The position numbers were made by a program, and so were the translations under genes. A DNA stretch of 64,000 nucleotides from a virus, in the IMG/VR virus record IMGVR_UViG_3300009184_000044, positions 4,394-68,393 of that record. The stretch is one strand, 5' to 3'. Of the stretch, positions 35,207 through 50,672 are shown piece by piece. A model generated the notes under the pieces. The model was given only the letters and a program-made list of their open reading frames with translations, was not told the origin of the DNA and ran no database searches. Every line of letters starts with the position of its first letter. Position 1 is the first letter of the stretch.

Positions 35207-37828
35207 ATGTCATCATGGGAATCAGCAAGTAACGGCCGCCTGAAAAAAGGTGCCGAATGGTATGCCAAAAACGATTGGAAAATTCTTCCTGTTCATGGTA
35301 TTGATGACGGTGGTCGCTGCACTTGCAATAGTCAGCATGGCGACTCTAAAGATATTGGTAAACACCCAGCTATAGGTGAGTGGAATGTAAACGCTACTAA
35401 TGAAATACATAGCATTGATGCGTGGTGGGATAAAAACTCTAATTACAATGTTGGTGTTTTTTGTGCCCCGTCTGGATTCTTTGTAATTGATATTGACCCT
35501 CGCTCTGGTGGGACTGATAGTTTTGACGAGTTTGAGCGTTTAGTTGAGGGAGCACTCCCTCCTACTGTTGAAGCTATTACTGGTGAATACAGCATTGCTG
35601 GAAAAATTGTTCGTGGTCGCCACCTCTACTACAAAGCAGATTCTGAAGAACAGTTAGTTGGAAATCTTTTAAAAGCTGGTCTAAAAGGTATTGATATCAA
35701 GCACAATGGTTATGTTCTTGTTGCTCCATCACGCCACTTCTCTGGCACTACATATGACTGGGCTCCTGGTAAGGCTCCTTGGGAAATCGAGATGGCGCAG
35801 GCACCAGAAGAACTCTTAGGATTTTTACGAAAGAATAAGCGTACATCTACTAGCTATTCCGAAGGTACTTGGGACTGGATGGGTGGTCTTGAGGTCTCTG
35901 GTGAGAAAGTTGATATTGAAGGTCTTCTTGAGAATGGTATTGATGAAGGTTCTCGTGCAGTAGAAATTTATCGTCTTGCTTGTGCACTTGCAAATAAGTT
36001 TGGAACTACTCCAGATGCTCGCATGATGATTGAGACAATGATGATTCGTTTCAATCACGAGAAAGTTCGCCCTCCTATGGAGTTAGAGGGTCCAAACTCC
36101 CTACTAATGCATACTCGTCGTGCAATTGATTTTATTGCTAGTACTCCAAAAACTGAACGTATCTGGCCAGGATTGAATGGTTGGGAGCAAGGTAAGAAGT
36201 GGGCAGAGCAGTCGCAGGCTGAGAGTAATGCTTTAATTGCTGCAAGTTCTTCTGATGACCCTCACTCTGCACCAGTTGCTAATGCTGTTGGTGCTGCTGT
36301 TACTCGTATGGTTTCTGATGGAATGTCTGCTCGTGGAGCAGCTAGCGGTGGCAACATAGATGTTCCTGATGACCCTGATGCTATTGACGCAGAGGATGGT
36401 GGTACTCCAGGATTTCGTACACTTACCGATGTTGGTAATGGTCGTCGTCTAATTGACACCTATGGCTCTGCTGTTCGCTATACTCCCGGGCTTGGTTGGT
36501 TTCACTGGGACGGTCAATACTGGAAACCAGATGTTGAAGAACTCGAAATTAGTGAACTTGCAAAACGTATCTCTCCAATTATTGCTAGTGAAGTTTCCAA
36601 CTACGATGATGGTGCTCAGCAGAAAAAGCAGGATATTGTCAAGTGGGCACAGCAGGCAAAATCAAATAGTCGTCTTGTAAATATGGTCAAGAGTGCCAAC
36701 TCCGATACTCGTATTGTTGTTGGCGTAAAGCAGTGGGATGGGGATTCCAACATGCTTGGTGTCTCTAATGGTGTCATTGACTTGCGTACTGGTGAACTAC
36801 TTCGTGGTAGACCGGACTTATATATCACGCGTCGTGCTCCAGTTGCCTACACTCCAGGACTTCGTAATGTTCGTTGGGAGCAATTTATTGATTTTGCTAC
36901 TGGTGGAGATAAAGAACTTCAGGACTGGCTACAGCGCGCAGTTGGATATACGCTGAGTGGATTTAAGACTCAGGATATTATGTTCTTAGTTTATGGTCCT
37001 CCGGGTTCCGGTAAAAACACGTTTGTTGAAACTATTGTTAAAGCTCTTGGAACTCAGGAGTATGCATGGCCTCTTGACTCAAGCGTACTTGCTCAAGGAG
37101 ATGGTCGTGCTAATCAGTCTGACCAGTACCACTGGGCTGAGTTGCGTGGTCGTCGTATGATTTGGGTTGACGAGTTGCCTGAAACAGAACGTCTAAAAGA
37201 AAACTCAGTAAAAAAGTTGACTGGTTCATCTGAAATTTCAGCACGTTCTCCTGGTGAAAAACCGTTCACATTCGAGGCTCAGGGTAAGTTGTGGGTTACT
37301 ACAAACCACAGACCTATTATTTCCGATGACGCTATGTGGCGTCGTCTGCGTCCTATTCCTCTAACTAATGTCCCTCAAAACCCTAACCCAGATTTGAAGG
37401 CTTACCTACATGACCCTGATGGCGGACTACCTGCTGTCCTTTCATGGGCTGTTGAAGGTGCTGTAAAGTATTTAAACTCTAGCGAGAGAGACCCTCTTGG
37501 CTGGTGTTCTGCTGTTCGTGAAGCTGCTGAAATCTATCGTAAGAATGAAGACCGTATTGGTCTATTCTTAGATGAAGAAACAAAGCAGTCTGAGGGGACT
37601 TCTCTTACTGTTAAGGCTTTGTATGGTGTATACCGTCTATGGAGTGATGACCGTGGTGAACGTCCTATGTCTCAAATTGCATTCCATCGTAAACTTGCTG
37701 ACCGTGGGCTATCTGTTGAAGGCCAGGGCTCTAGAGCAGAAATTTTAGGAATGATGTTACTACCTAAAGCTGTTGTCAATACTGGGGTTGATTGGAGTAC
37801 TGCTACTAGATTCGCTAAGAACTTTTAG
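35207..37828 (+). CDS. bifunctional primase-polymerase fused to a D5/SF3 helicase (likely start ATG 35207)
   Basis: Prim-pol motifs GKHP, IDIDPRSGG, HLYY, GYVLVAPS; D5 motifs TDVGNGRR, GPPGSGKNT, TNHRP, AMWRR. Confidence 0.9.
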   Translation: MSSWESASNGRLKKGAEWYAKNDWKILPVHGIDDGGRCTCNSQHGDSKDIGKHPAIGEWNVNATNEIHSIDAWWDKNSNYNVGVFCAPSGFFVIDIDPRSGGTDSFDEFERLVEGALPPTVEAITGEYSIAGKIVRGRHLYYKADSEEQLVGNLLKAGLKGIDIKHNGYVLVAPSRHFSGTTYDWAPGKAPWEIEMAQAPEELLGFLRKNKRTSTSYSEGTWDWMGGLEVSGEKVDIEGLLENGIDEGSRAVEIYRLACALANKFGTTPDARMMIETMMIRFNHEKVRPPMELEGPNSLLMHTRRAIDFIASTPKTERIWPGLNGWEQGKKWAEQSQAESNALIAASSSDDPHSAPVANAVGAAVTRMVSDGMSARGAASGGNIDVPDDPDAIDAEDGGTPGFRTLTDVGNGRRLIDTYGSAVRYTPGLGWFHWDGQYWKPDVEELEISELAKRISPIIASEVSNYDDGAQQKKQDIVKWAQQAKSNSRLVNMVKSANSDTRIVVGVKQWDGDSNMLGVSNGVIDLRTGELLRGRPDLYITRRAPVAYTPGLRNVRWEQFIDFATGGDKELQDWLQRAVGYTLSGFKTQDIMFLVYGPPGSGKNTFVETIVKALGTQEYAWPLDSSVLAQGDGRANQSDQYHWAELRGRRMIWVDELPETERLKENSVKKLTGSSEISARSPGEKPFTFEAQGKLWVTTNHRPIISDDAMWRRLRPIPLTNVPQNPNPDLKAYLHDPDGGLPAVLSWAVEGAVKYLNSSERDPLGWCSAVREAAEIYRKNEDRIGLFLDEETKQSEGTSLTVKALYGVYRLWSDDRGERPMSQIAFHRKLADRGLSVEGQGSRAEILGMMLLPKAVVNTGVDWSTATRFAKNF

Positions 37829-37900
37829 TAGTGTGTTAGGATGTTTATATCACTTATAGTGATGTAAGATATAAATGTGCTGCTCGGGAGAGAGGTACAG

Positions 37901-37929
37901 CGGGGGTTGAGAGAGATACTCAGCCCCCG
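37901..37929 (+). promoter_or_regulatory. 11-bp hairpin in the 5' leader of the glycosyltransferase gene
   Basis: cgggggttgag-agagata-ctcagcccccg. Confidence 0.45.
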
Positions 37930-37953
37930 TACACTTAAAGAAAAAAGGTCATA

Positions 37954-38724
37954 ATGAAAGTTTTTATTGCAACCCCAATGTACGGTGGCATGGCAAAGAG
38001 CGTCTATATTGCAGGTCTTTCTGATTTGATTAAAGAGCTTTCTGCCAGAGGGCACAGCGTTTCTCATACATCTATTACAAACGAAAGTCTAATAACTCGT
38101 GCAAGAAGCACTCTTGCAAATGAATTTATGAAGACCGATTTTGATGCTTTGCTTTTTATTGATGCAGACCATGGTTTTTCTGCAGAAGACGTTGTAGCAA
38201 TGGTTGAGTCTGGTAAAGATTTAATTGGTGCTCCGTACCCTATGAAGGCAATTAACTGGGAAAATGTGCGAAAAGCAGCTCTTGCTGGTAAAGAGAATCT
38301 AGAAATATACTCCGGTCTTTTTGCTATTAACTTTTTAGATGAAGAGCAAACTTTTAAAGCCAACGAGCCTTTTAAAGTAAAAGATGTTGGCACCGGTATG
38401 ATGTTTATTCGTCGAAATGTTTTTGAAAAGATGAAAGAAGTTTGTAGCGCATATAAATACAACACTATTGGCGATAATATACCTTTTGGTCAGGATATGA
38501 TTGAGTATTTTAAGACTATGATTACCCCAGAGCCTGAGAGCATATTGCTATCTGAGGATTATGCTTTCTGCCACATTTGGCGTGAGCTTGGGGGAGAAGT
38601 TTGGGCGGCCCCGTGGGTTCGTATTTCTCACGCGGGAGAATACAACTTTACTGGAATGCTTCTTGCGACTTTAGAAATTAATCAGGTTGATTCTGTAGAA
38701 GAACCTAAAAAGAAGAAAAAATAG
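37954..38724 (+). CDS. GT-A fold glycosyltransferase-like protein
   Basis: FIATPMYGG, SLITRARSTL, LLFIDAD (DxD), GTGMMFIRR and LSEDYAFC motifs. Confidence 0.8.
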   Translation: MKVFIATPMYGGMAKSVYIAGLSDLIKELSARGHSVSHTSITNESLITRARSTLANEFMKTDFDALLFIDADHGFSAEDVVAMVESGKDLIGAPYPMKAINWENVRKAALAGKENLEIYSGLFAINFLDEEQTFKANEPFKVKDVGTGMMFIRRNVFEKMKEVCSAYKYNTIGDNIPFGQDMIEYFKTMITPEPESILLSEDYAFCHIWRELGGEVWAAPWVRISHAGEYNFTGMLLATLEINQVDSVEEPKKKKK

Positions 38725-38798
38725 TAAAATCTTTCTGCCGTCAATGCCGTCAAAGTGTGAGATAATTAAGACATAACTTCACCGCCAGAAATGGAATT

Positions 38799-38960
38799 AT
38801 GTCTGAAATTCCTAAAAATAAGTCCAATGTATGCTATGTTTGCAAAGAACGTTTTGTAGTAGATATTTTAGCTCGTTGCTGTGAAATGAAGCATGAAGGT
38901 ATTGTCTTTGAGAGACGTCCTGAGCAGGAACCTGGACCTAAACATAAACCTAAACTTTAA
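38799..38960 (+). CDS. small zinc-finger-like protein (53 aa, not in the ORF track)
   Basis: MSEIPKNKSNVCYVCKERFVVDILARCCEMKH..., a CxxC-x12-CxxxH pattern. Confidence 0.55.
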   Translation: MSEIPKNKSNVCYVCKERFVVDILARCCEMKHEGIVFERRPEQEPGPKHKPKL

Positions 38961-39129
38961 CAGCCTTTTTCCAAAGTTTTTCAAATACCCAGTAAGTAAA
39001 GATTTTAAACAAAACCTCTAGCCCTACAATCTGAGCGGCAGTTTCAAACTTATGAGTGACAGTTAAGGCAATTAAAAAAGTTATTAGACTCTGCCAAACT
39101 CTGTAAATTATAGATTTTAGTAAAATCAT
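38950..39129 (-). CDS. DUF2061-like two-TM membrane protein (59 aa, not in the ORF track)
   Basis: MILLKSIIYRVWQSLITFLIALTVTHKFETAAQIVGLEVLFKIFTYWVFEKLW matches the KS.sWR...EV..K...Y..hEr.W pattern. ATGA-coupled to the APS kinase gene. Confidence 0.7.
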   Translation of the reverse strand: MILLKSIIYRVWQSLITFLIALTVTHKFETAAQIVGLEVLFKIFTYWVFEKLWKKAVKV

Positions 39130-39872
39130 AGTCCTAATTCTGCACGCTTTTTAGTTGCCGAGATAGCCTGAAGTTCTGGACTTAGTTCTATCTTTTCAAT
39201 TAAATAGCCAACGTCACGCCCATAAACGATGTTTGTGATGTTTGGCAAACGCATCTTTAGAGTGTCTGGCTGTTCTGGAATGAACTCAACTACTTGGTGA
39301 AAAGTTAGAGGGTCTTTCTCCGAGGTGTCGTGAGTGTTACGGATGCCGATAAGAACTTGCTTGGTTCTGTTATGTGCTTCTTCTTTTAGGGCTTGATGAC
39401 CTTCATGCCATGGTTGATAGCGACCTAGCATTAGTGTTGTTGGAGCAGACCAGTCAAATAAGCCAAACTTACTAATTACCTCGTCGGCCATCTCTTTATC
39501 TGACTTCCATTCGTAAAAAGTGTGGTCAGCATCAATTACAGGAATCCACATAGCGTCGGTGTCAGCAAAACGACTAGAAGCAATAGTGTTCATTACAATT
39601 TTGATGTTTGGGATACCAAAGGCTTTACGAGTCGCTTTGGTCGGACAGATGAAATCAACAATAACGGTATGACCTTGCTTAGATAGCAATCTAGCCATTT
39701 CACCTAGGCGACGAGCATTTTCTGCTCTGTCCTTTTCGCTAAAGCCAAGGTCAGAGTTTAGAGTGGAGCGGACCTCGTCTGCATTGAGGTGAATAGCGTT
39801 TAGACGCTCTTTTAGAGCTTCAGCTAGAGTTGTTTTACCTGAGCCTGGTAGTCCTAGGATTTGAATAATCAT
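39126..39872 (-). CDS. cysC: adenylylsulfate (APS) kinase fused to a HIGH-type nucleotidyltransferase domain
   Basis: GLPGSGKTT, LNADEVR..L..DLGFS..DR.EN.RR and VIVDFICP; C-terminal GRYQPWHEGH and ISATKKR. Confidence 0.8.
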   Translation of the reverse strand: MIIQILGLPGSGKTTLAEALKERLNAIHLNADEVRSTLNSDLGFSEKDRAENARRLGEMARLLSKQGHTVIVDFICPTKATRKAFGIPNIKIVMNTIASSRFADTDAMWIPVIDADHTFYEWKSDKEMADEVISKFGLFDWSAPTTLMLGRYQPWHEGHQALKEEAHNRTKQVLIGIRNTHDTSEKDPLTFHQVVEFIPEQPDTLKMRLPNITNIVYGRDVGYLIEKIELSPELQAISATKKRAELGL

Positions 39873-40708
39873 TGTAGTTTTGCCTTTGCGTAATTATATA
39901 TTTCTAAGTCTAATGCGTTATTAGCGTATATAAGGTCGATGTCGGCCTGTGTGAGCAAGGCTTTTAGGGACTGAGTTGTGTAGGTAGTACCGTCTAAGTC
40001 GGTATAGCTACTAAAATTTACATACGGAGCGTCTGTTTTTGCCATTATTTCTGCGTTTATATCCAAATACTCTTGCTTGATATCTACTTTATGATTGTCA
40101 AGAATCCACTGAAAAACTTTATCCATAAATTCACTATGTTTTTCAGTAATGCCTAGTATGGTTATTTTATCTACAGTGCTTTTAGCAATTTCTAGAGATG
40201 TAGAATCTTCAAGAAACCAGTCTTTATAGTAATCTTTATACATTTCTGCCCTATTAAGTTCTATTAAGGAACCGTCTTCTCTATAGACAGACACATTATT
40301 TATTCTAAAAGAGTCGTCGTCTATTTGACTAGATAAAAATCTAGTAACTAAATTATTTTTTGAATAGTCAGAATCTTCTAATAAGTAATAACACATTTTT
40401 TCATAGATTGAATTTAAATTTTTATACGGTTCTTTTTCTTGAAGTTCATTATTCATAAGTAGCCAAATAAAATTACTTACTACCCTGTCTAAGGGCTCTC
40501 TAATTAGGCAAGCACTTTCTATCTCTGGATATTCTGTAAGTGGTTTAATACCAAAATGACCATGAATGTAGGCAAACTTTTTGTAGTCATATATGCCGAA
40601 TGGTGAGTATGGGTATGAAAGAATGTTCTTAAGATTAAGTAATCTAGCAATTGTTCTTACTGCTAATCCGCCAGTTTTGGGTATATGTAGCATGTAAAGT
40701 GTTTTCAT
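39869..40708 (-). CDS. sulfotransferase (Sulfotransfer_2-like)
   Basis: PAPS-binding motifs LHIPKTGG (5'-PSB) and LIREPLDRVVS (3'-PB); C-terminal N.LD.EIY..AK. Confidence 0.8.
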   Translation of the reverse strand: MKTLYMLHIPKTGGLAVRTIARLLNLKNILSYPYSPFGIYDYKKFAYIHGHFGIKPLTEYPEIESACLIREPLDRVVSNFIWLLMNNELQEKEPYKNLNSIYEKMCYYLLEDSDYSKNNLVTRFLSSQIDDDSFRINNVSVYREDGSLIELNRAEMYKDYYKDWFLEDSTSLEIAKSTVDKITILGITEKHSEFMDKVFQWILDNHKVDIKQEYLDINAEIMAKTDAPYVNFSSYTDLDGTTYTTQSLKALLTQADIDLIYANNALDLEIYNYAKAKLQ

Positions 40709-40716
40709 ATTGACTC

Positions 40717-41958
40717 CTAAGTAAATATGTAGTATGAATCAAGAACTGTAGATGTGCTAGTTTGAGTGAAAGTATTAGTAGACCATCCCGCTATAGTTCC
40801 AGCAGTAGGGGAATTTCCATATCCGGATGTTGTTGTAGCAAATGGACTAATGGATGTAGTAGCAGTTGAGGTAGTAGTGTAAGAAACTAATGAAGTTGTC
40901 ACTGCTGTTCCACTTGTTGTAACTGGACCCCAAACAACTCCATCTGTCTTAAGTTTTGCTGCTGCAGATATAGAACCGATGTTTACTAAAATATCTCCAT
41001 CTGATGTAAGTCTTAGGTTTGAGGCAATTGTTGAGTACACTGAACCAGCAGAAATGCTTCTAGCCCAGTTGAGGGTTCCATCTGAGTTTAGTTTTACTAT
41101 AGGGCTAATATTTGTACTGCTAACTGAACCAGATAAAAAGTAAACATTTCCAGAAGCATCTATATCGAGTAAAGCACTTGCACTCCACTTAGTGTAGTTT
41201 CCTCCTGTGGGGACACTTTTTCTCCAAGTAGCAGTGAGACTGGAGTTAAATTTATACACATATTGACTAGAAACTCCATAAATATTTCCAGAAGCATCCC
41301 ACTTAAGTGTTTCATGGGCCCAATTATATACTGCAAGTTTTGTTAAAGTTGGACTAAGTTTAAAGGTACCTGATATATTATAAACCCATACATTTCCGGA
41401 TGGGTCTACTCCTGAAATTCTGTATATCGCATACCCAAGATAGGTGCTGTACGCCATGGAACCATCAGATTTATTTAGAGTAACTACATAGCCGTCATCT
41501 GTGTCTTTTGAAAATGCTGCTTCGTGATTAATTGCTGTTACTAATTGAGTGCTATTTAAAATTAAAATTGGTAGTGGACCATTTTGATTAGCATAAGTTG
41601 TTGCTTTTTTAGACCAAACAACGCTACCATCGCTGAGACTAAGTGCTGTAACTACTGGCATAGCAGATGAATTTATAGTTGAAATGTATATATTTGAAGA
41701 ATCTATTGCAAAATATGCGCCTAAACCTGACAACCCTCCATGGGTTTTTGCCCACTGGAAAACTCCATCTTTAGAATATTTATATAGATATCCGCTATTT
41801 GAAACATAGACATTTCCAGAAGAATCGCTAATAATATCTCTAGCAGCAAAAGTATTACCATTTGCTTCTACTGACCTTGGAAAAACAAAATATTTATTGA
41901 CAATACCTACAACAGCACTTTTAAGGCTGCCAATCAATCCAGCAACTGCACCAGACAT
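40717..41958 (-). CDS. beta-propeller repeat virion/adhesion protein
   Basis: Repeated DSSGNVY / DASGNIY / DG...W motifs; the MSGAVAGLIGS N-terminus is typical of fibre-associated proteins. Confidence 0.65.
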   Translation of the reverse strand: MSGAVAGLIGSLKSAVVGIVNKYFVFPRSVEANGNTFAARDIISDSSGNVYVSNSGYLYKYSKDGVFQWAKTHGGLSGLGAYFAIDSSNIYISTINSSAMPVVTALSLSDGSVVWSKKATTYANQNGPLPILILNSTQLVTAINHEAAFSKDTDDGYVVTLNKSDGSMAYSTYLGYAIYRISGVDPSGNVWVYNISGTFKLSPTLTKLAVYNWAHETLKWDASGNIYGVSSQYVYKFNSSLTATWRKSVPTGGNYTKWSASALLDIDASGNVYFLSGSVSSTNISPIVKLNSDGTLNWARSISAGSVYSTIASNLRLTSDGDILVNIGSISAAAKLKTDGVVWGPVTTSGTAVTTSLVSYTTTSTATTSISPFATTTSGYGNSPTAGTIAGWSTNTFTQTSTSTVLDSYYIFT

Positions 41959-43058
41959 TATGTAAGACCGTTACCGCTAATAATCCAAGAAGTAGAAGTA
42001 ATTTTTACTGCGGTAGCCATACCGTAAGCAGCTAAAGTTCTAGTCCCTGTAGTTCCAGGACCTGCTAGGTACATAGTATCAGTCGTAATTGCAATGCTGA
42101 CAGATACGGTTGCTAAATTTATAAACGTAATTGTTGTACCAATTTGGTAACCAACGCTACCATTTGCAGGAATAGTTATTGTTTGAGAAGCAGTGGTTCC
42201 AGAGAAATAAATATGCTTGCCGGCATCTGATGCTACAAGTGTATAAGATGCAGTTTTAGCATTCTGTGGCATACCCATAAATCCAGCAGTAGTTGCTGAT
42301 GTTGTAGCTACAGCATCTGCTGGAGTAATAGTAGGGGTTGTACCAAATACTAGGGCACCAGAGCCAGTATCATCTGAGATAACAATTGCCAGTTGAGCTG
42401 AAGTTGTAGAAGCAAACTGGCCTAGACCGGTTCCTGTTAAGCCTAGACCTGTGGTCGGGTGGACGTGGTCTGCTCGTGCAGCCGTAGTTGCTGTACCAAC
42501 TGCTGCAGTTCCGGATGCAGAAGGAGTTGTTGAACTTAGTCCAGTAATGCTATTGAATGAGGTTCCGCTTATTATTCCTGCAGAAAAAGCTCCCGATGCA
42601 TCTCTGGAAACAATTGTTGATGCTGTATTTATATCTGTAGCGTTAGTTGCAATAGAGATAGTGTCGGTGCTTGCTGTACCCGTAATACTTATTCCAGTAC
42701 CGGCAGTGAATGTTAAAGTGTCGGTTGTTGATGAGGCTATAGGGTTAGTTCCGGAAGGGACGGAAATGGTACTAAAAGAGTTTGATGCAGAACCGCCACC
42801 AACTAAGCTAGTTCCTACAGATGCAGCACCACTAGTGATGTCAATATAGTATCCACGATTTGTATTTCCAGTTTCAAAAATACGAAGTTGATTTCTAAAA
42901 ACGTCAATTGTTACGCCAGTAGTTAGAGTTGTATTGGTTATTGCTTTAGCGAGGTCAATCTGACCGCCCTCATCACCGACTGAATTAGTTGATTTCAGGA
43001 AGCCAGTGGTAGAGATATCGCCATCAGCGGTTATACCAGTTCTAAAAAATCTAGCCAT
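41958..43058 (-). CDS. fibre-like virion protein
   Basis: ASTIVSRDASGAFSAG, ARADHVHP, SYTLVASDAGKHI and C-terminal WIISGNGLT fibre modules. Confidence 0.75.
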   Translation of the reverse strand: MARFFRTGITADGDISTTGFLKSTNSVGDEGGQIDLAKAITNTTLTTGVTIDVFRNQLRIFETGNTNRGYYIDITSGAASVGTSLVGGGSASNSFSTISVPSGTNPIASSTTDTLTFTAGTGISITGTASTDTISIATNATDINTASTIVSRDASGAFSAGIISGTSFNSITGLSSTTPSASGTAAVGTATTAARADHVHPTTGLGLTGTGLGQFASTTSAQLAIVISDDTGSGALVFGTTPTITPADAVATTSATTAGFMGMPQNAKTASYTLVASDAGKHIYFSGTTASQTITIPANGSVGYQIGTTITFINLATVSVSIAITTDTMYLAGPGTTGTRTLAAYGMATAVKITSTSWIISGNGLT

Positions 43059-43067
43059 AGACTAATC

Positions 43068-46000
43068 CTAGCCGATAATTACGTATCGATATCCAGTTAG
43101 TGATATGCCGGTAGGGGAGAATGTAGTAATTCCGCTTGCTGTTGTAACATCAACTTCAACTTGAACGCCTCCTGAGTCGAATAGCTGAGCAACTACACCA
43201 TTAGTAAACCCGTGGTTTACGGTAACTGCTGTGCCGGAAGTGACTGTAGTAAAGGTACCTGTTACTTTACGAGCAATAGTAGGAGTTACTGCAGCAGCAT
43301 AAGTGGTGACTGTTGTATCAGCGCTTACAGGAAGGTCGGAGTAAGCAGCTTGGCTGATTGCAGTACCGTTACCTTTTAGGAGACCCGTTACGCTAGTAGT
43401 AAGTGTAAGTGCTGGTGTTGCACCTCCGCTAGAGCTACCTGTAAAGCCATTAGCAGAGACAACTGATACAGCAGTTACTGTTCCTGTTCCGTAAGCAACA
43501 GTATCTGTAGAAAGGGTTCCATCAGTGGCAATCTTTACAAATCCAGCAGTAGGTCCAGCAGCAACAACGGTAGGAAGTTTAACTGTTCCAGTTATAGTAG
43601 TTGTAACACTAGATTGACCAATAGAAATTGCAGCAGGTGCTGCGTAAGCGTTAGAAGTTCCAGCAGCATTTCTAGTACCGATTAAGATGCTTCCAGCAGT
43701 CGAGCTAGTTCCAGTTGCATAACCAACATCTACAAGTACGTTACCTGATGTTGCAGCAACACCTGTACCTGTTGCAATACCTGTACCTATAATTACGTTT
43801 GCAGTTACTGCAGTGGCACCGGATGTGACGTTTATACTTCTAAATGTTGCGGTAGCTGTGTCTATTGTCAGCTGTGAACCGCTAATTGTTACACCAGCAG
43901 TGTTTGCTGTTCCAATAGAGATTGTACCTTTAGTGGAACCATTTCCAGCATTAATTGTAACGTTTCCACCGGTACCGGCTGTAATGTTAGCATCACCAGC
44001 GGTAATAGCTACGTTACCACCTGTTGTTGCAAGAGTACCCACGGTTGCAGTACCAGCAAGAATATTAACGTTACCAGCGGTAGCGGTTGAGCCAGCTCCA
44101 GTAGCGCTACCACCTCTAACGTTTACTGTTCCACCGGTACCTGTTGTTGTTGAAGTTGTGTTACCTGCGTTGACGTTAACGGAGAATCCGTTACCGCTTA
44201 CAGCTGCTGCTGAGACAGTAAGAGTACCTCCTGATGCAACAAACATATTTGTGTTGGATGTGGTGCTAACAGTTGGAGCAGAAAGAATGGTTGTAGTAAG
44301 AGTTCCCGTACTTGGTAGATAACTTAGTGGCAAAGTTACAGCGTTTAGAAGTAAGTTTTTTGAACCTGTACCGCTAGTAGTAAACACAGGGTAGTATGTA
44401 GTGGCGGCGGTAGTTTCAGTAGCGGTGACGGTAGTTGAGTTACCAGCGTTAGTTGCGTTGGTAACAGTGCTTGCACCAATTGCAGTTGCAATTTCTGCAC
44501 CTGTAGCAATAGCTAGAGTTCCGTTAGTAGAACTTGTTTTTAGTAGACCATCGGTAGCAAAGGCAGCAGCACCAAGTTTTACAGTTCCATTAATTGTTGT
44601 GGTTGGTGTTCCAGCATTAGTACCAATTATGATGGTTGTTGTGCTACCTGTAGCACCAGCGGTACCAATGTTTATTGCCTTGGTACCTGAAGACATAGCA
44701 CCAGTACCAATATTTATTGCACCAGTTGTGAAAGCAGTTCCTGTAGCTATGTTCACATTTCCAGTGGTTAATGCAGAAGCTACGTTTAAATCACCTGTTG
44801 TGCTGTTATTAAAAAAGTTAAGACTTTGATTAACAGCCGACATATTCAAGTTGAAGTTGTTGCTACCAAGAATTATTGCACCAGTTGGAAGTAGCTGAGT
44901 AGCGTATAAATATCCGCTGTAATTAAGTCTTGTAGTACCGGATGGTGCTGTGGTTGAACCATCAAATTGACCAGTGGTTGGTGTTGTGCCGTTATAGACT
45001 ACAAATGATGAAGAAGCTGAACCTGCTGTTACACCAACGCTTCCAGGTAATGTTCCAGAGGAAACGTTAGATGCGTTTAGAGATGTAAGAGTTGCACCGG
45101 AACCAACAAAACTGGTTGCAGTAAGAGCACCAGTAGAAGCAACATAGCTAATTGCGTTAGCGTTAGAGTTTTGAGCTAGAGCCTTGAATCCAGTTGTAAC
45201 GCTTGGAGACATTACAAGATAGTAAGTTCCTGAGACGGTTTCAGTTACGTTTGCGTTATTAGTGTTTGTAACGGCGTTAGTGCTAATAAGAGTTGTAACA
45301 TCTGTACCAGATGCAGCAGTAAAAGCACCTGTACCGTTACCCTTAAGGATTCCTGTTAGGGTGCTAGCTCCTGTACCACCGTTAGCAACAGGTAATACTC
45401 CACCAGTTGTTCCAGCGAACTGAGCCCAAGTGATATTGTCGGTACCAATTTTAATGGCGTTGGTTGGGGTAGTAGCAGTACCTGTGGAGTTCATTGCCCA
45501 TGTGCTACCACCGTTTACAGTTCCAGATGTGACATAAGCTAGGTCTCCTGGGAATACTTCACCAGCAACGCTGTTGTCGAAGTCAGTTGCACGGGTAAGT
45601 GTAACGTTTGCTCCAGGAGTTCCAGTTACTGTATAGATACCGTTTTGCTTTTGGTCAGTCTGGTTTTTTAAAAGAACTCGGTTAGCTGCAGCTAAAGTTA
45701 CACCATCAATTTGAGCGGTTGTAAATACAAATGTTGCACCTTGACCCGTACCTTGTGAGGCATCAGAAGTACCGGCTGTGTAGGTACCTGTAATAGCTGC
45801 AGTAGATGCAACTAGAACAGCAGCGTGTACGTTGAATCCTGCTTGAGAGTTTGCAATAGATGTATCTACATAGGTAGTTGTTGCAAGGGTACCTGTTGCT
45901 GCAGGAAGAGTGAGTGTTCCTGAAGCAGTAGTATTTGCTACTAATGTGGTACTTCCACTAGTTCCTTGGAATACTGCTCCAGTGCTTTGAATAGTAGGAG

Positions 46001-46574
46001 AGGTAAAAGTTTTGTTAGTTAGTGTCTGGGAACCAGTTAGGGTTGCCACGGTTGAGTCAATTGCAATAGTTACAGCTGCGGAACCTGTGTATGGACTGGA
46101 GCCTGTGCTAGCTTGAAGGCCTGTTCCGATAGTTAGTCCGAAAGGGTTTGCAGCAGAGATAGTTATGTTTGAGGCACCTGTAAAGCCAACCCCATTTATA
46201 TTTGCTCCAGGAGAAAGAGCAGCGGCTGTGGTAGCAGATGTGGCAGTATCTGCGTTACCTTGAAGAGCACCAACAAAAAGTGTTGATGTGATTGAGGTCA
46301 TACCTGCAAGGGTAGTTACAGCACCAGAAGAGTTCCCAATTGTGTACTGAGTTGTACCTACATATAATGAACTACCGCCTGTAGCAACAGTCTGCCAAGC
46401 TGAACCGTTATAGACTCTTAGGGTGTTTGCAGTTGAGTCAAACTGTAGTCGTCCACCTACTAGGTTGGCAGCACCAGTGATAGCGTCTATTGAGCTGCCC
46501 GATAGTCTACCTACAACAAAGTTTTGTAGTTCATTGACATTTAGGTTAATTGGGGTAAGAAAATTACGAGCCAT
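43068..46574 (-). CDS. long fibre-like virion protein
   Basis: 1168 aa, Thr/Gly-rich; INGVGFTG, TLTNKT, RVLLKNQT.QKQNGIY..TRATDFD and GGNV.I.AG repeats. Confidence 0.8.
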   Translation of the reverse strand: MARNFLTPINLNVNELQNFVVGRLSGSSIDAITGAANLVGGRLQFDSTANTLRVYNGSAWQTVATGGSSLYVGTTQYTIGNSSGAVTTLAGMTSITSTLFVGALQGNADTATSATTAAALSPGANINGVGFTGASNITISAANPFGLTIGTGLQASTGSSPYTGSAAVTIAIDSTVATLTGSQTLTNKTFTSPTIQSTGAVFQGTSGSTTLVANTTASGTLTLPAATGTLATTTYVDTSIANSQAGFNVHAAVLVASTAAITGTYTAGTSDASQGTGQGATFVFTTAQIDGVTLAAANRVLLKNQTDQKQNGIYTVTGTPGANVTLTRATDFDNSVAGEVFPGDLAYVTSGTVNGGSTWAMNSTGTATTPTNAIKIGTDNITWAQFAGTTGGVLPVANGGTGASTLTGILKGNGTGAFTAASGTDVTTLISTNAVTNTNNANVTETVSGTYYLVMSPSVTTGFKALAQNSNANAISYVASTGALTATSFVGSGATLTSLNASNVSSGTLPGSVGVTAGSASSSFVVYNGTTPTTGQFDGSTTAPSGTTRLNYSGYLYATQLLPTGAIILGSNNFNLNMSAVNQSLNFFNNSTTGDLNVASALTTGNVNIATGTAFTTGAINIGTGAMSSGTKAINIGTAGATGSTTTIIIGTNAGTPTTTINGTVKLGAAAFATDGLLKTSSTNGTLAIATGAEIATAIGASTVTNATNAGNSTTVTATETTAATTYYPVFTTSGTGSKNLLLNAVTLPLSYLPSTGTLTTTILSAPTVSTTSNTNMFVASGGTLTVSAAAVSGNGFSVNVNAGNTTSTTTGTGGTVNVRGGSATGAGSTATAGNVNILAGTATVGTLATTGGNVAITAGDANITAGTGGNVTINAGNGSTKGTISIGTANTAGVTISGSQLTIDTATATFRSINVTSGATAVTANVIIGTGIATGTGVAATSGNVLVDVGYATGTSSTAGSILIGTRNAAGTSNAYAAPAAISIGQSSVTTTITGTVKLPTVVAAGPTAGFVKIATDGTLSTDTVAYGTGTVTAVSVVSANGFTGSSSGGATPALTLTTSVTGLLKGNGTAISQAAYSDLPVSADTTVTTYAAAVTPTIARKVTGTFTTVTSGTAVTVNHGFTNGVVAQLFDSGGVQVEVDVTTASGITTFSPTGISLTGYRYVIIG

Positions 46575-46582
46575 TTAGGTTC

Positions 46583-47032
46583 CTAAGATAGGTAAGCAAA
46601 ACCGGTAAAAGCTTCGCTAAAGGTTACGGTAAGGGAGTCATTATCGATATATTTAATGGTACCTTCTACGGTAAAGTCTGCAGTATCTGTTGTTGTGATG
46701 CTTGGTTTGTAGCCCAAATTGTGAGTTATATTCCATGTATATGATACCGCATTTTGAGTATGCTTATAAAAGACGGGTTGCGTCTCTCCGGGTATTCCTT
46801 GAGGGCCTTGCGGTCCTGTAGGTCCGGTTGGGCCTGTGCTTCCGGCTGAGCCGGTTGGTCCGGTTGGGCCTGTGCTTCCGGCTGAGCCGGTTGGTCCGGT
46901 TGGGCCTGGAATTCCTTGAGGACCACCCTGAGAGACCTCGACGTGAGTAATCTGCTCTTGAACAATAATCTTGTTCTGGTCTTGTTTATCAACAATAATT
47001 CTTAGGGGTTGGTCATCGCTATCTAGTGGCAC
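46583..47032 (-). CDS. collagen-like (Gly-X-Y) virion protein
   Basis: [21 protein letters not shown]... run followed by the W.I.HNLGY.P domain. Confidence 0.8.
46821..46908. repeat. perfect 36-bp tandem repeat (2 copies plus a 16-bp partial) in the collagen region
   Basis: ggtccggttgggcctgtgcttccggctgagccggtt at 46821 and 46857, partial copy at 46893. Confidence 0.9.
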
Positions 47033-47403
47033 TATCGAGTCACCTCAGCTTTTACAACAAAATTTCCTTCTACAAGTCGGGTCACTTCACCACCTGCAGA
47101 TACCAGCTCTAAGTCATAAACATATTGACCTGGAGTTAGACCAGCAGTTGTCGCAGCAGATAATATAAGAGTTACCTGACCTTTAGTTTCCGCGGTAGTT
47201 CCAAGAGTAATTTTACCATTGACTGTGGTAAGGTCTATAATTGTAGAAGTAGAAGTTACACTTGAACGAACTTGCATACGAGCTGTATATCCATTTAGGT
47301 CGATGGCTTTTTTGGCAGAGTCAGTCCAAGTCAAGGTACGACGAAATGTGGCACCCTGATTACACAGGAAGTTGTGAAGTCCGGCTGGCCCGCAGCAGCT
47401 CAT
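47032..47403 (-). CDS. BppU-like / fibre-anchoring virion protein
   Basis: [20 protein letters not shown] and YVYDLEL...[15 protein letters not shown] motifs. Confidence 0.7.
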
Positions 47404-47439
47404 AATGCCTCATTTCGGAATAAAGATGTAGTCTCCTAT

Positions 47440-47445
47440 ATTTTA
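47440..47445 (-). promoter_or_regulatory. candidate -10 box (TAAAAT) for the 47403-38950 operon
   Basis: TANNNT hexamer about 37 nt upstream of the first gene, in a divergent intergenic region. Confidence 0.4.
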
Positions 47446-47563
47446 CAACAGTTTTGAGATACTAAGACTGGCTTAGGGTGTAGTATGCTTACATACGGCT
47501 ACAAATCCTAAAAATGTTTTTGAAATGCTACGGCCAATTATTGGTGAAGAAAGGTGATAAACC

Positions 47564-47791
47564 ATGTCTCAGGCTGAAGTTCTAGATAGAACTGATACAA
47601 ACGACTCAGATTCAGATGACCATTACGCTCATTATGCAAATGCTGCTAAGGTTACCGAGGGGTATATTATGGGAACTCCAGTAATAGCCCTATGCGGAAT
47701 AGAGTTTATACCCTCTAGAGACCCTGAAAAACTAAGGATTTGCCCGATTTGCAAAAAAATTGTAGAGGCACTATTCTTGAATCACGAGTAA
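47564..47791 (+). CDS. DUF3039 family protein (actinobacterial host-like)
   Basis: HYAHY....VTEG.IMGTPVIALCG..FIPSRDPEK..ICPICKKI matches the DUF3039 pattern. Confidence 0.85.
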   Translation: MSQAEVLDRTDTNDSDSDDHYAHYANAAKVTEGYIMGTPVIALCGIEFIPSRDPEKLRICPICKKIVEALFLNHE

Positions 47792-47862
47792 TACTCGCCT
47801 CTTAGGAGTCGAGGTATACTAGTATTCCTATCAATCACTCCCACCAAAGGCGGTATATCCCC

Positions 47863-50333: not shown

Positions 50334-50672
50334 ATGCTAGAAAACCTTATACCTAAGGATTACCCTGATTTTGAAGAGCATGGAACCCCTCCTTGTGCTG
50401 AGTCATTCCCGGATGCATTCTTTACGACAGACAAGAGTGAATCTTCTGTCTTGAGAAATGGCAAAGTTTCTATGAAAACTTGGGCTAGGTATGACTATGA
50501 AAAAGAGGCTAAAGCTATCTGTGCTGAATGTCCTTACAAAAAAGCCTGTCTAGAGTTTGCCCTAAAGTATTCAGAAATTGGTATCTGGGGTGGAACTACT
50601 GAGCTAGAGCGTAGAAGAATGCGACCAGCTCATAATTTAGGTTCAACTAGCCAGCCTCGTCCTAGAGTATAA
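50334..50672 (+). CDS. whiB: second WhiB-family transcription factor
   Basis: PPCAESFPDAFF, AKAICAECPYKKAC and GIWGGTT..ERR motifs. Confidence 0.9.
   Translation: MLENLIPKDYPDFEEHGTPPCAESFPDAFFTTDKSESSVLRNGKVSMKTWARYDYEKEAKAICAECPYKKACLEFALKYSEIGIWGGTTELERRRMRPAHNLGSTSQPRPRV

What the first reader, a model, noticed from the sequence alone, without database searches (positions are those of the whole stretch)
37954..40708. Sulfation module co-transcribed with fibre genes: possible sulfated virion coat
Seen: the minus-strand operon runs fibre genes, propeller, sulfotransferase, APS kinase fusion and DUF2061, with ATGA overlaps at 39869-72 and 39126-29. A GT-A glycosyltransferase converges on it. 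The APS kinase carries a C-terminal HxGH...SAT nucleotidyltransferase domain. Known: ATP sulfurylase belongs to the HIGH superfamily, APS kinase makes PAPS, sulfotransferases use PAPS, and some actinophages glycosylate their virions. Inference: the 248-aa fusion is a minimal PAPS synthase, and the module sulfates glycans on the Ser/Thr-rich fibres or on the host surface rather than acting as a sulfur-metabolism AMG.
Basis: partly seen in the sequence, partly recalled or inferred. Interest (0 to 1): 0.75.

Follow-up and report, generated by a model that had tools for sequence, protein, structure and literature searches.

The report
Phage sulfation cassette with mini PAPS synthase
A lake phage of actinobacteria ends one of its fibre gene cassettes with a sulfate-transferring enzyme, a tiny two-domain enzyme that probably makes the activated sulfate it needs, and a small membrane protein, so this widespread viral "cysC" gene probably serves sulfation, not host sulfur nutrition.

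Summary
The genes, their order and both ATGA overlaps are exactly as described. The core is three genes. The first is a Sulfotransfer_2-type sulfotransferase (39869-40708). The second is a 248-aa fusion (39126-39872) of a lid-less APS-kinase-like domain and a ~105-aa HxGH/ISAT nucleotidyltransferase (NT). The third is a DUF2061 gene (38950-39129). They close a tightly packed Ser/Thr-rich fibre cassette in a WhiB-carrying freshwater phage.

Comparative evidence supports the "minimal PAPS synthase" reading but does not prove it:
- The NT family is fused to APS kinases in both domain orders, some of them full-length canonical ones.
- It sits beside at least three different sulfotransferase families in phages, and beside others in metagenomic contigs.
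- It occurs in complete phage genomes and in SAR11 cells where no canonical ATP sulfurylase or PAPS reductase was found.

Against it:
- The NT's nearest solved relatives are NMN adenylyltransferases.
- The kinase has NADE in place of DGDN.
- 55 of 81 loci show no recognised sulfotransferase nearby.
- Bacterial DUF2061 genes are not linked to sulfate genes.

The convergent Anp1-like transferase travels with the primase, not with the module. The target of sulfation is unknown. The scan has found this module before on other DNA. I found no paper describing it; a published survey of freshwater phages files their cysC genes under sulfate assimilation.

The parts
47032..47403 (-). first gene of the cassette, tail-fibre-assembly-like protein (123 aa)
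   Evidence: phrog_1084 E 2.5e-27 and phrog_3304 'L-shaped tail fiber protein assembly' E 6.4e-13
46583..47032 (-). collagen-repeat fibre protein (149 aa)
   Evidence: Pfam Collagen E 7.1e-8; many PHROG tail-fibre families
43068..46574 (-). 1168-aa Ser/Thr/Gly-rich fibre-like protein
   Evidence: S+T 0.30, G 0.13; phrog_2647 segment 226-444; no Pfam family
41958..43058 (-). 366-aa Ser/Thr-rich fibre protein (P0006)
   Evidence: S+T 0.32; its C-terminal part recurs in fibre genes of L006 and L183
40717..41958 (-). 413-aa beta-propeller-like protein with Thr/Ser-rich tail (P0005)
   Evidence: language-model neighbour: viral SBBP/DUF5122 propeller cluster, score 0.93; no Pfam hit; always directly upstream of the sulfotransferase in L005 and L006
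39869..40708 (-). sulfotransferase, Sulfotransfer_2-like (P0002, 279 aa); 5'-PSB loop H8-x-P-K-x-G-G14 (40667-40687), 3'-PB motif R70-x-P-x-D-R-x-x-S78 (40475-40501)
   Evidence: Pfam PF03567 E 7.3e-4, 20.2 bits (cut-off 22); relatives reach 27.3 and 25.6 bits; 10 of 13 members hit PF03567; motif residues invariant in 13 sequences
39453..39872 (-). fusion protein P0001, N-terminal lid-less APS-kinase-like domain (residues 1-~140); P-loop at 39828-39854
   Evidence: Pfam APS_kinase 75.6 bits but profile positions 4-91 of 152 only; PDB APS kinases E 3e-12; Foldseek 3uie E 4.8e-9; VIA-align 4rfv Z 16.9, rmsd 2.1, 127 aligned
39129..39452 (-). fusion protein P0001, C-terminal ~105-aa HxGH/ISAT nucleotidyltransferase domain (residues ~141-248); HEGH at 39396-39407, ISAT at 39153-39164; candidate ATP sulfurylase
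   Evidence: CTP_transf_like E 1.1e-3; invariant GRYQPWHxGH, TSxKDP, PNxTN, YGRxVGY, SAT..R; family fused to APS kinases in both orders
38950..39129 (-). DUF2061 small membrane protein (59 aa), last gene of the operon
   Evidence: Pfam PF09834 E 4.9e-12; a DUF2061 gene starts within 400 nt downstream of the fusion in 64 of 81 loci
38799..38960 (+). 53-aa Cys-rich ORF, convergent, overlaps the DUF2061 3' end by 11 nt; neighbour, not shown to belong
   Evidence: homologues in L005, L006 (cluster 72) and in L183, which lacks the sulfation genes
37954..38724 (+). Anp1-like (GT-A type?) transferase P0004, convergent neighbour that travels with the primase; not part of the module
   Evidence: phrog_1574 E 1.9e-40; invariant D70/D72; 5 of 8 relatives weak Anp1 hits; follows the primase in L183-L185 without the fusion

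Best explanation
The last three genes of this fibre cassette form a self-contained sulfation unit. In the 248-aa fusion, the small HxGH/ISAT nucleotidyltransferase domain adenylylates sulfate (ATP + sulfate -> APS + PPi). The lid-less APS-kinase-like domain then phosphorylates the 3'-OH of APS to give PAPS. The neighbouring Sulfotransfer_2-type enzyme uses that PAPS in the infected cell to sulfate a hydroxyl group, most likely on a glycan or a Ser/Thr-rich fibre protein encoded just upstream. DUF2061 is a small membrane partner of unknown role.

Shown:
- gene order and tight packing;
- family-level identity of the kinase-like, NT, sulfotransferase and DUF2061 parts;
- conservation of the catalytic motifs;
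- recurrent fusion and neighbourhood patterns.

Inferred:
- both enzyme activities;
- that the NT is the ATP sulfurylase (about 0.55);
- that the target is the virion (about 0.35).
For: (1) Co-transcription is likely: eight co-oriented genes are joined by overlaps or gaps of 9 nt or less.

(2) The kinase domain keeps the P-loop and the residues aligned with the APS-binding signature of solved APS kinases: D32, R35, F44, R49, N52, R54-R55 and F74-I-C-P77. Its fold matches APS kinases best (Z 16.9; Foldseek E 4.8e-9).

(3) The NT domain is the most conserved part of the protein. Its family has 759 cluster representatives at E <= 1e-3. Of the best 150:
- 71 are kinase-NT and 6 are NT-kinase;
- 41 stand alone;
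- 30 have other or unknown partners;
- 2 are NT+DUF2061.

(4) I picked 34 of these for odd architecture. Eight carry a full-length canonical APS_kinase (110-212 bits), four in each domain order. One is NT+DUF2061.

(5) In phages, Pfam-supported sulfotransferases of three different clusters lie near the fusion in 16 of 81 loci. The count is 26 of 81 with a fourth cluster recognised by motif only.

(6) In metagenome contigs, NT-APSK fusions lie by sulfotransferases in at least 14 of 80 loci, among polysaccharide genes. None of the 79 neighbour proteins scanned (of 618 ORFs) was an ATP sulfurylase, CysD/CysH or CysN.

(7) Five complete related phage genomes have 0 of 5 PF01747 and 0 of 5 PF01507.

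(8) In five SAR11 single-cell genomes:
- PF01747 is found in 0 of 5, and PF01507 gives only weak partial hits;
- the NT gene is found in 4 of 5 (fused, adjacent or elsewhere);
- short kinases lie next to sulfotransferases in 2.

(9) Nanopelagicales isolates lack complete assimilatory sulfate reduction (PMC12817590, one passage). A phage in such a host would have to supply both steps itself.

(10) A DUF2061 gene sits in a Mesorhizobium nod locus with nodH, nodP and nodQ (preprint 10.1101/2022.04.26.489235, one passage).
Against: - No enzyme activity has been measured for any member that I could find.
- The NT domain has no sequence match to the Sat family. Its nearest relatives with solved structures or curated names are NMN adenylyltransferases (2qjt E 1.5e-4; NF002243 E 5.5e-6, far below its cut-off).
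- The kinase has N30-A31-D32-E in place of DGDN. In human PAPSS1, changing either Asp of DGDN to Ala abolishes APS kinase activity (PMC8528679, abstract). The family also lacks the lid segment (profile positions 92-152 unmatched) and misses NCBIfam's equivalog cut-off (79.3 against 138.7).
- 55 of 81 phage loci show no recognised sulfotransferase within -5/+4 kb.
- Of 5 complete phage genomes, only 1 has a sulfotransferase hit over a Pfam cut-off. Three more have only sub-threshold hits and one has none.
- In cultured phages (Xylella Sano, Stenotrophomonas DLP_6; ~38% identity) the fusion sits among early or nucleotide-metabolism genes, next to a NADAR gene and MazG. There it has no DUF2061 and no annotated sulfotransferase.
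- In 30 Pseudomonadota DUF2061 loci, 0 of 30 had an APS kinase, sulfurylase or sulfotransferase within 1.5 kb; catalase, KatG, Dps and disulfide-reductase genes were common instead.
- The AlphaFold model is weak over residues 210-230 (pLDDT 52-69), and the C-domain's fold was not searched on its own.
Confidence: 0.6

Rival explanations
1. The fusion is not a PAPS synthase. The NT domain is an NMNAT-like or other adenylyltransferase, and the kinase-like domain phosphorylates that product or its precursor. This would be NadR-like or CoA-synthase-like logic, for example NAD-related metabolism or counter-defence. The sulfotransferase next door would be a separate cargo gene.
For: - The nearest named relatives of the C-domain are NMN adenylyltransferases.
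- The Sano-type homologue lies next to NADAR and MazG genes.
- The DGDN motif is changed and the lid is missing.
- 55 of 81 loci lack a recognised sulfotransferase nearby.
Against: - The NMNAT matches cover only the first ~55 residues (the HxGH half) and are far below the family cut-offs.
- The domain is ~105 aa, against 168-181 aa for the matched archaeal NMNAT chains, so little room is left for a large acceptor.
- The N-domain scores far better for APS kinase (E 5.6e-21) than for AAA_28 (9.4e-6), the Pfam family that, from my recollection, covers the NadR ribosylnicotinamide kinase. It also scores far better than for dephospho-CoA kinase (0.0054).
- The same NT family is fused to full-length canonical APS kinases in both orders and lies by sulfotransferases in phages, SAR11 and metagenomes.
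Confidence: 0.15
2. This is a classical auxiliary metabolic gene. The phage 'cysC' boosts the host's assimilatory sulfate reduction during infection, which is how a published survey reads the cysC genes of freshwater phages.
For: [quoted passage not shown] Phage cysC transcripts exceeded non-phage ones in some samples (PMC10914622, passages). Whether those cysC genes are this fusion was not checked.
Against: - No PAPS_reduct (cysH/cysD) was found among the window's ORFs scanned or in 5 complete related genomes (0 of 5).
- The gene is translationally coupled to a sulfotransferase at the end of a fibre cassette.
- The likely host order lacks the rest of the pathway, so extra PAPS would have no reductive sink.
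Confidence: 0.07
3. The module does make and use PAPS, but the target is not the virion. It would sulfate a host envelope polymer (for example to block superinfection or change the cell surface) or a small molecule.
For: - In most of the related loci the fusion and DUF2061 lie among small accessory genes (WhiB, thioredoxin, 2OG oxygenases, halogenase, carbamoyltransferase, GlcNAc transferase), not among fibres.
- Fibre-like genes are nearby in only 18 of 81 loci.
- Cellular NT-APSK fusions sit in envelope-polysaccharide loci.
- DUF2061 is predicted to be a membrane protein.
Against: - In the window and all five closest loci the sulfotransferase directly follows a fibre-like gene.
- 14 of the 26 loci with a sulfotransferase or sulfotransferase-like gene also have a fibre-like gene.
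- Neither point shows what the substrate is.
Confidence: 0.25
4. Only the kinase half works in the pathway, using APS made by the host. The NT domain would be a regulatory or nucleotide-binding appendage, much as fungal ATP sulfurylase carries an inactive APS-kinase-like domain (from my own knowledge).
For: SAR11 genomes carry the short kinase alone next to sulfotransferases (L095-L097), so the kinase can stand without a fused NT.
Against: - The HxGH and ISAT catalytic motifs and about 35 further C-domain residues are invariant in 37 sequences down to 64% identity. That fits catalysis, not mere binding.
- One of those kinase-only SAR11 genomes carries a stand-alone NT gene elsewhere.
- No canonical sulfurylase was found in these phages or SAGs to supply APS.
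Confidence: 0.08

Closest known systems
Bifunctional PAPS synthases and Sat-CysC or CysN-CysC fusions (human PAPSS1/2, PDB 1x6v; Aquifex Sat/APS kinase, 2gks; M. tuberculosis CysNC, 4rfv)
   Same: One polypeptide joins a sulfate-adenylylating module to an APS-kinase fold. The kinase domain aligns structurally with these chains (Z 15.4-16.9).
   Different: - The sulfurylase part here is a ~105-aa HxGH/ISAT domain with no sequence match to Sat (PF01747) or to CysD/CysN.
- The kinase lacks the lid and has NADE in place of DGDN.
- The whole protein is 248 aa, against 546-630 aa for the solved fusions.
Dedicated PAPS supply plus tailoring sulfotransferase loci of bacteria: rhizobial nodPQ-nodH; Xanthomonas raxPQ-raxST (both recalled from my own knowledge; the nodH/nodP/nodQ plus DUF2061 locus is seen in one passage)
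   Same: A private PAPS source is encoded next to the sulfotransferase that consumes it, for decoration and not for assimilation. A DUF2061 gene accompanies one such locus.
   Different: Those loci use canonical CysD/CysN-CysC. Here the unit is phage-borne, sits at the end of a fibre cassette, and uses the small NT domain.
Archaeal/NadM-type NMN adenylyltransferases (PDB 2qjt, 1f9a, 1ej2)
   Same: They share the GR[FY]QPxHxGH motif and the following beta-alpha unit. They are the best PDB and NCBIfam sequence matches for the C-domain.
   Different: Only ~55 residues match, and scores are far below the family cut-offs. The domain is about 60 residues shorter. It is recurrently fused to APS kinases, not to Nudix or NadR-type kinases.
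Freshwater phage 'cysC' auxiliary metabolic genes (COBRA study, PMC10914622, passages read)
   Same: Probably the same kind of gene: whiB-carrying and other lake phages with an APS-kinase hit, transcribed in situ.
   Different: That study reads them as assimilatory sulfate reduction. It does not mention the fused NT domain, DUF2061 or sulfotransferase neighbours in the passages I saw. Its supplements were not read.
Virion glycosylation of mycobacteriophages by phage glycosyltransferases (recalled; only papers citing it were seen in the listing)
   Same: A precedent for actinophages decorating their own virion proteins after translation.
   Different: That is sugar transfer, not sulfate. No sulfated phage particle was found in the literature searched (0 papers for four phrases).

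Membership tests
APS kinase (CysC; Pfam PF01583, TIGR00455) | Walker A P-loop GxxGxGK[ST] | tested here: met
   G7-L-P-G-S-G-K-T-T15; P9, G10, G12, K13 and T14 are invariant in 37 sequences
APS kinase (CysC; Pfam PF01583, TIGR00455) | DGDN Mg/phosphoryl-transfer motif (both Asp essential in hPAPSS1; abstract of PMC8528679) | tested here: not met
   Aligned residues are N30-A31-D32-E33. N30, A31 and D32 are invariant in the family, so the first Asp is Asn. More distant homologues have NGD or DAD
APS kinase (CysC; Pfam PF01583, TIGR00455) | APS-binding signature (R after the DGDN motif, LGFS...DR.EN.RR, FISP); the residue roles are recalled from the literature | tested here: met
   R35, L42-G-F-S45, D48-R49, E51-N52, R54-R55 and F74-I-C-P77 align with 3cr7 and 4bzq. 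The Ser of FISP is Cys (invariant C76)
APS kinase (CysC; Pfam PF01583, TIGR00455) | Full domain including the lid segment; curated score cut-offs | tested here: not met
   The Pfam match covers profile positions 4-91 of 152 (75.6 bits, over Pfam's cut-off of 21.1). TIGR00455 gives 79.3 bits against a cut-off of 138.7. The structural match is 127 of 143 residues, Z 16.9
APS kinase (CysC; Pfam PF01583, TIGR00455) | Catalyses APS + ATP -> PAPS + ADP | not testable with these tools
   needs an enzyme assay
HxGH/ISxT nucleotidyltransferases (Pfam PF01467 CTP_transf_like) | HxGH motif near the N-terminus of the domain and ISxT motif near its end | tested here: met
   H156-E-G-H159 and I237-S-A-T240. 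H156, G158, H159, S238, A239 and T240 are invariant
HxGH/ISxT nucleotidyltransferases (Pfam PF01467 CTP_transf_like) | Score over the Pfam gathering cut-off (21 bits) | tested here: inconclusive
   P0001 scores 19.7 bits. Family members found with the C-domain pass: P0254 41.3, P0264 38.8, P0255 35.7 bits
HxGH/ISxT nucleotidyltransferases (Pfam PF01467 CTP_transf_like) | Rossmann-like nucleotide-binding fold | tested here: inconclusive
   The model shows beta-alpha-beta units at 145-209, but both fold searches were filled by the kinase domain (residues 1-143). The domain could not be folded alone
ATP sulfurylase, Sat type (Pfam PF01747) or CysD type (PF01507) | Sequence membership | tested here: not met
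   Neither family appears among P0001's Pfam hits at E <= 0.01
ATP sulfurylase, Sat type (Pfam PF01747) or CysD type (PF01507) | Catalyses ATP + sulfate -> APS + PPi | not testable with these tools
   Inferred from fusions and neighbourhoods only
NMN adenylyltransferase, archaeal/NadM type (TIGR01527, NF002243) | Full-length match over the curated cut-off | tested here: not met
   22.5 bits against 181.2, and 26.1 against 127; only residues 147-207 match
PAPS-dependent sulfotransferase (Pfam PF03567 Sulfotransfer_2) | 5'-phosphosulfate-binding loop (PKxGG/T) and 3'-phosphate-binding motif (RxPxxRxxS); motif definitions recalled | tested here: met
   H8, P10, K11, G13, G14 and R70, P72, D74, R75, S78 are invariant in 13 sequences down to 36% identity
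PAPS-dependent sulfotransferase (Pfam PF03567 Sulfotransfer_2) | Score over the Pfam cut-off (22 bits) | tested here: inconclusive
   P0002 scores 20.2 bits. Relatives score 27.3 and 25.6 bits. 10 of 13 members hit at E <= 0.01, best 1.3e-6. PDB sequence and profile searches found nothing significant
PAPS-dependent sulfotransferase (Pfam PF03567 Sulfotransfer_2) | Sulfotransferase fold | not tested
DUF2061 (Pfam PF09834) | Score over the cut-off across the whole 52-position profile | tested here: met
   46.5 bits against 23.1, profile positions 1-52. The window's copy lacks the HERxW motif seen in most phage copies
GT-A glycosyltransferase, Anp1/GT62-like (for P0004) | DxD motif; family-level sequence match; GT-A fold | tested here: inconclusive
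   D70-A-D72 is invariant in 8 sequences. P0004 has no Pfam hit, and 5 of 8 relatives hit Anp1 weakly (best E 2.5e-4). Language-model neighbours score 0.98-0.99. The fold job was accepted, then interrupted

The most novel reading that the evidence does not exclude
The ~105-aa HxGH/ISAT domain is a third, previously unrecognised and minimal kind of ATP sulfurylase. Paired or fused with a stripped-down APS kinase, it would be the PAPS source of many lake and marine phages. It would also serve streamlined bacteria (SAR11) that are thought unable to activate sulfate. In this phage the PAPS would be spent on sulfating the virion's own Ser/Thr-rich fibres, giving a sulfated phage particle.
Probability: 0.3. 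Interest if true: 0.85.

Novelty: new variant of a known kind. Interest (0 to 1): 0.62.

Why it matters
- If the small domain is an ATP sulfurylase, a textbook reaction has an unnoticed, very compact catalyst. That would change how 'cysC' hits in viromes are counted in sulfur-cycle budgets: sulfation rather than assimilation.
- It would show that cells and phages of lineages described as lacking sulfate activation (Nanopelagicales hosts, SAR11) can still make PAPS for surface decoration.
- A sulfated phage fibre or sulfated host surface would be a new kind of phage-host interface chemistry.
- The 248-aa enzyme would be a handy one-gene PAPS generator for biotechnology.

Tried and rejected
- **Nucleotide search of cultured phages:** no match to 37800-47500.
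- **PDB sequence and profile searches:** nothing significant for the sulfotransferase or for P0004.
- **Fused, longer forms of DUF2061 by word search:** none found (weak evidence). Fusions were later found from the NT side.
- **Promoter and terminator scan of 37700-48000:** 21 promoter-like sites against 22.0 +/- 5.3 in shuffles, and 7 terminator-like sites against 7.0 +/- 2.5. This gives no information on transcription units.
- **Expression:** no RNA holder was listed for 38900-43100. No reads were laid.
- **Idea that DUF2061 is a sulfate-specific partner or channel:** rejected as a general rule.
  - 0 of 30 Pseudomonadota loci had sulfate-activation or sulfotransferase genes within 1.5 kb. 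One had a TauE sulfite exporter, and 9 had catalase, peroxidase, Dps or disulfide-reductase genes.
  - In SAR11 SAGs DUF2061 occurs in 2 of 5, and not next to the kinase or NT genes.
- **Idea that the Anp1-like transferase belongs to the module:** rejected.
- **Binding of DUF2061 to the fusion:** Complex prediction was never run, because its queue was full and it was then declared unavailable. The question stays open.
- **Fold tests:** The C-domain was not folded alone, so its fold neighbours are untested (one search covers residues 1-143 only).
- **Sulfotransferases elsewhere in 5 complete related genomes:** only 1 hit over a cut-off, 3 more genomes with sub-threshold hits, and 1 with none. 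This is inconclusive.
- **Literature searches that found no description of the module:**
  - DUF2061, 6 papers, all passing mentions by listing, one read;
  - 3 papers, irrelevant by title and abstract;
  -;
  - 0 papers for four phrases;
  - no listed paper holds 'cytidylyltransferase-like'.

Full report
**What is there**

The window is 64 kb of a 68-kb IMG/VR virus record that CheckV rates about half complete. It has no nucleotide match among cultured phages.

It carries two WhiB genes (23102-23659 on the minus strand, 50334-50672 on the plus strand). Its G+C content is about 42%. The public runs that hold it are labelled freshwater metagenome or metagenome where a label is given. Together these point to a lake actinophage. 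The exact host is an inference.

Genes 47403 to 38950 on the minus strand form one tightly packed block. Junctions are 1-nt or 4-nt overlaps or gaps of 8-9 nt. In order, the genes are:
- a tail-fibre-assembly-like protein;
- a collagen-repeat fibre;
- a 1168-aa protein and a 366-aa protein with 30-32% Ser+Thr;
- a 413-aa protein with a Thr/Ser-rich tail, whose only fold lead is a viral beta-propeller cluster (score 0.93);
- then the three genes of the finding.

**The three core genes**

*Sulfotransferase.* P0002 (39869-40708) scores just under Pfam's Sulfotransfer_2 cut-off (20.2 bits against 22). Its family is convincing at the sequence level:
- 10 of 13 aligned members hit that family, and only one other family appears, Sulfotransfer_1 in a single member.
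- Two relatives pass the cut-off.
- The residues of the two PAPS-binding motifs (H8, P10, K11, G13, G14; R70, P72, D74, R75, S78) are invariant down to 36% identity.
- PDB sequence searches gave nothing, and no fold test could be run.

*Fusion protein, N-terminal half.* P0001 (39126-39872) starts with an APS-kinase fold. Foldseek gives 3uie at E 4.8e-9. VIA-align gives 4rfv at Z 16.9, rmsd 2.1, 127 residues aligned. It has the P-loop and the LGFS..DR.EN.RR / FI(C)P signature that aligns with solved APS kinases.

It is not a standard member, for three reasons:
- Only profile positions 4-91 of 152 match, so the lid segment is gone.
- The NCBIfam equivalog cut-off is missed.
- DGDN reads NADE, with the Asn invariant. 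In human PAPSS1, changing either Asp to Ala abolishes the kinase (abstract of PMC8528679).

*Fusion protein, C-terminal half.* The last ~105 residues are the best-conserved part. GRYQPWHxGH, TSxKDP, PNxTN, YGRxVGY and SAT..R are invariant in 37 sequences. This is an HxGH/ISxT nucleotidyltransferase. Its nearest named relatives are archaeal/NadM NMN adenylyltransferases, but only over the first ~55 residues and far below their cut-offs. It has no match to Sat or CysD.

*DUF2061.* P0003 (38950-39129) is a clear DUF2061.

**Is the fusion a PAPS synthase?**

The fusion is common. There are 3675 hits at E <= 0.001, and the best 120 are almost all 243-256 aa and full length. In IMG/VR, 589 of 599 candidate stretches encode a relative.

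*The 81 phage loci* (the 80 best plus the window):
- A DUF2061 gene is present in 68, and starts within 400 nt downstream of the fusion in 64.
- WhiB lies in 31.
- Pfam-supported sulfotransferases of three unrelated clusters (Sulfotransfer_2 in two forms, Sulfotransfer_3/1) lie nearby in 16 of 81.
- A fourth cluster has only sulfotransferase-like motifs and sub-threshold hits. It raises the count to 26 of 81.
- The other 55 show none within the stretch examined.

*The NT domain searched alone against 1.8 billion representatives:*
- It finds 759 relatives at E <= 1e-3.
- By local HMMs, the best 150 comprise 71 kinase-NT, 6 NT-kinase, 41 stand-alone, 30 other or unknown, and 2 NT+DUF2061.
- I sent 34 of them to Pfam, chosen for unusual architecture, so not a random sample. 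Eight carry a full-length canonical APS kinase (110-212 bits), four in each domain order. One is NT+DUF2061. One is a membrane domain plus short kinase plus NT.

A small domain that evolution has repeatedly welded to APS kinase on either side most simply makes the kinase's substrate.

*Independent contexts agree:*
- NT-APSK fusions in metagenome contigs lie beside sulfotransferases in at least 14 of 80 loci, among glycosyltransferase, Wzy, PMT and export genes. None of the 79 neighbour proteins I scanned (representatives of 618 ORFs) was a Sat, CysD/CysH or CysN.
- In SAR11 single-cell genomes the same pair occurs fused (L090-L092), as two adjacent genes (L093, L094), or as the short kinase alone. 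In L096 and L097 the lone kinase is next to sulfotransferases and glycosyltransferases.
- In five such genomes PF01747 was found in 0 of 5. PF01507 gave only weak partial hits in ~520-aa ORFs.
- The NT gene was found in 4 of those 5 genomes. One of these is a stand-alone copy, 44% identical to the phage domain, in a kinase-only genome. These genomes are incomplete, so absences there are weak evidence.
- Five complete (CheckV 100%) phage genomes with the fusion have neither PF01747 nor PF01507 (0 of 5 each).
- Nanopelagicales isolates lack a complete assimilatory pathway (one passage of PMC12817590). 'Ca. Pelagibacter' lacks it too (abstract start in the listing).

**Evidence against, and rivals**
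- Nothing has been assayed.
- The NMNAT-like motif, the altered DGDN and the missing lid keep a non-sulfate chemistry possible.
- In cultured phages with a ~38%-identical fusion (Xylella Sano and Salvo, Stenotrophomonas DLP_6 and others), the gene lies among early genes. In Sano it is next to a NADAR gene and MazG, with no DUF2061 after it.
- Of the five complete lake-phage genomes, only one has a sulfotransferase hit over a cut-off. Three have sub-threshold hits and one has none.
- DUF2061 is not a sulfate marker in general. It occurs in 65 of 301 sampled Pseudomonadota. In the 30 best loci, none had a sulfate-activation or sulfotransferase gene within 1.5 kb, while nine had catalase, peroxidase, Dps or disulfide-reductase genes.
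- The Mesorhizobium nod locus with nodH, nodP, nodQ and DUF2061 is therefore an exception, not the rule. The role of DUF2061 here stays open. The planned co-folding test could not be run.

**The neighbours**

The convergent gene P0004 has an invariant DxD and weak Anp1 (GT62) similarity in 5 of 8 relatives. Its language-model neighbours are labelled nucleotide-diphospho-sugar transferases.

P0004 follows the primase in three of four further relatives, none of which has the fusion within 3 kb. In the close relative L183 (primase 89% identical), the same position holds the transferase, the small Cys-rich ORF and a fibre cassette that ends with other genes.

So the sulfation trio is a swappable end-piece of a fibre cassette, and the transferase is not part of it. 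The sulfotransferase and DUF2061 genes have lower G+C (0.32 and 0.31) than the fusion (0.43). That fits cassette exchange, though it does not prove it.

In the window and all five closest loci, the sulfotransferase directly follows a fibre-like gene. This is the only evidence that fibres are the target.

**Comparison with what is known**
- It works like a PAPS synthase coupled to a tailoring sulfotransferase (PAPSS, Sat-CysC fusions; nodPQ-nodH and raxPQ-raxST, the last two recalled).
- It is not a member of the Sat or CysD families, and it fails two defining features of canonical APS kinase.
- The COBRA study reports 62 phage cysC genes in lake phages and places them in assimilatory sulfate reduction (passages). 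Whether those genes are this fusion was not checked.
- I found no paper that describes the NT domain, the DUF2061 link or phage sulfotransferases.
- Supplementary tables of the COBRA paper, which I did not read, may list the genes.

**Earlier notes of this scan**

Earlier notes describe the same module on other genomes, with the same reading. I treated them as leads. I re-derived the fusion, neighbourhood and SAR11 evidence here.

**Verdict**
- The reading as a private PAPS supply for sulfation is the best available (about 0.6).
- The identity of the small domain as a new, minimal ATP sulfurylase is likely but unproven (about 0.55).
- The virion as target is a guess (about 0.35).

Noticed in passing
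window 38799-38960 (+): A 53-aa Cys-rich ORF (CxxC ... CC) sits between the Anp1-like gene and the operon and overlaps the DUF2061 3' end by 11 nt. Homologues occur in L005, L006 and L183, including a relative without the sulfation genes.
   Followed up: partly
window 23102-23659 (-) and 50334-50672 (+): Two WhiB-family genes lie in one phage. The first is unusually long (185 aa, WhiB domain at residues 7-74).
   Followed up: no
window 11303-16450 and 16431-22964 (+): Two very large tail-region proteins (1715 and 2177 aa; the latter 27% Ser+Thr) with no Pfam family, downstream of a Dit-like protein.
   Followed up: no
window 54456-55115 (+): A serine recombinase (Resolvase plus Recombinase domains) that ends after 219 aa, inside the Recombinase domain. 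It may be an integrase remnant or a split gene.
   Followed up: no
window 39869-40708 and 38950-39129: The sulfotransferase and DUF2061 genes have G+C of 0.32 and 0.31, against 0.43 for the fusion between them and ~0.42 for the window. This suggests separate histories for the three core genes.
   Followed up: partly
L093 5995-6793 and L094 5995-6776 (SAR11 single-cell genomes): The short kinase and the NT occur as two adjacent genes amid methylated-amine and organosulfur genes (dimethylglycine-dehydrogenase-like, homocysteine S-methyltransferase, SBP56 selenium-binding/methanethiol-oxidase-like, enoyl-CoA hydratase), not in a glycan locus.
   Followed up: no
L189-L218 (Pseudomonadota genomes): Bacterial DUF2061 genes often lie next to Mn catalase, KatG plus a LysR regulator, Dps/ferritin or a pyridine-nucleotide disulfide oxidoreductase (9 of 30 loci). 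This hints at an oxidative-stress or metal link for this uncharacterised family. Some copies are tandem duplications within one ORF.
   Followed up: partly
L084 4989-5684 (Ralstonia phage RSL1 ORF238): An APS-kinase-like N-domain is followed by a different, non-HxGH C-terminal part, directly upstream of three glycosyltransferase genes (annotated beta-glucosyl-HMC-alpha-glucosyltransferase) and two nucleotidyltransferase genes.
   Followed up: no
L082 5553-6726 (Xylella phage Sano gp34-gp35): The ~38%-identical fusion is preceded by a NADAR-domain gene and lies near MazG, with no DUF2061. This is a context that points to nucleotide or NAD biology, not sulfation.
   Followed up: partly
L129 and L130 (metagenome contigs of 188 and 193 kb): An NT-APSK fusion sits in a conserved block with an amidinotransferase/DDAH-like gene, two methyltransferases, two B12-radical-SAM genes and (in L129) a sulfatase.
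   Followed up: no
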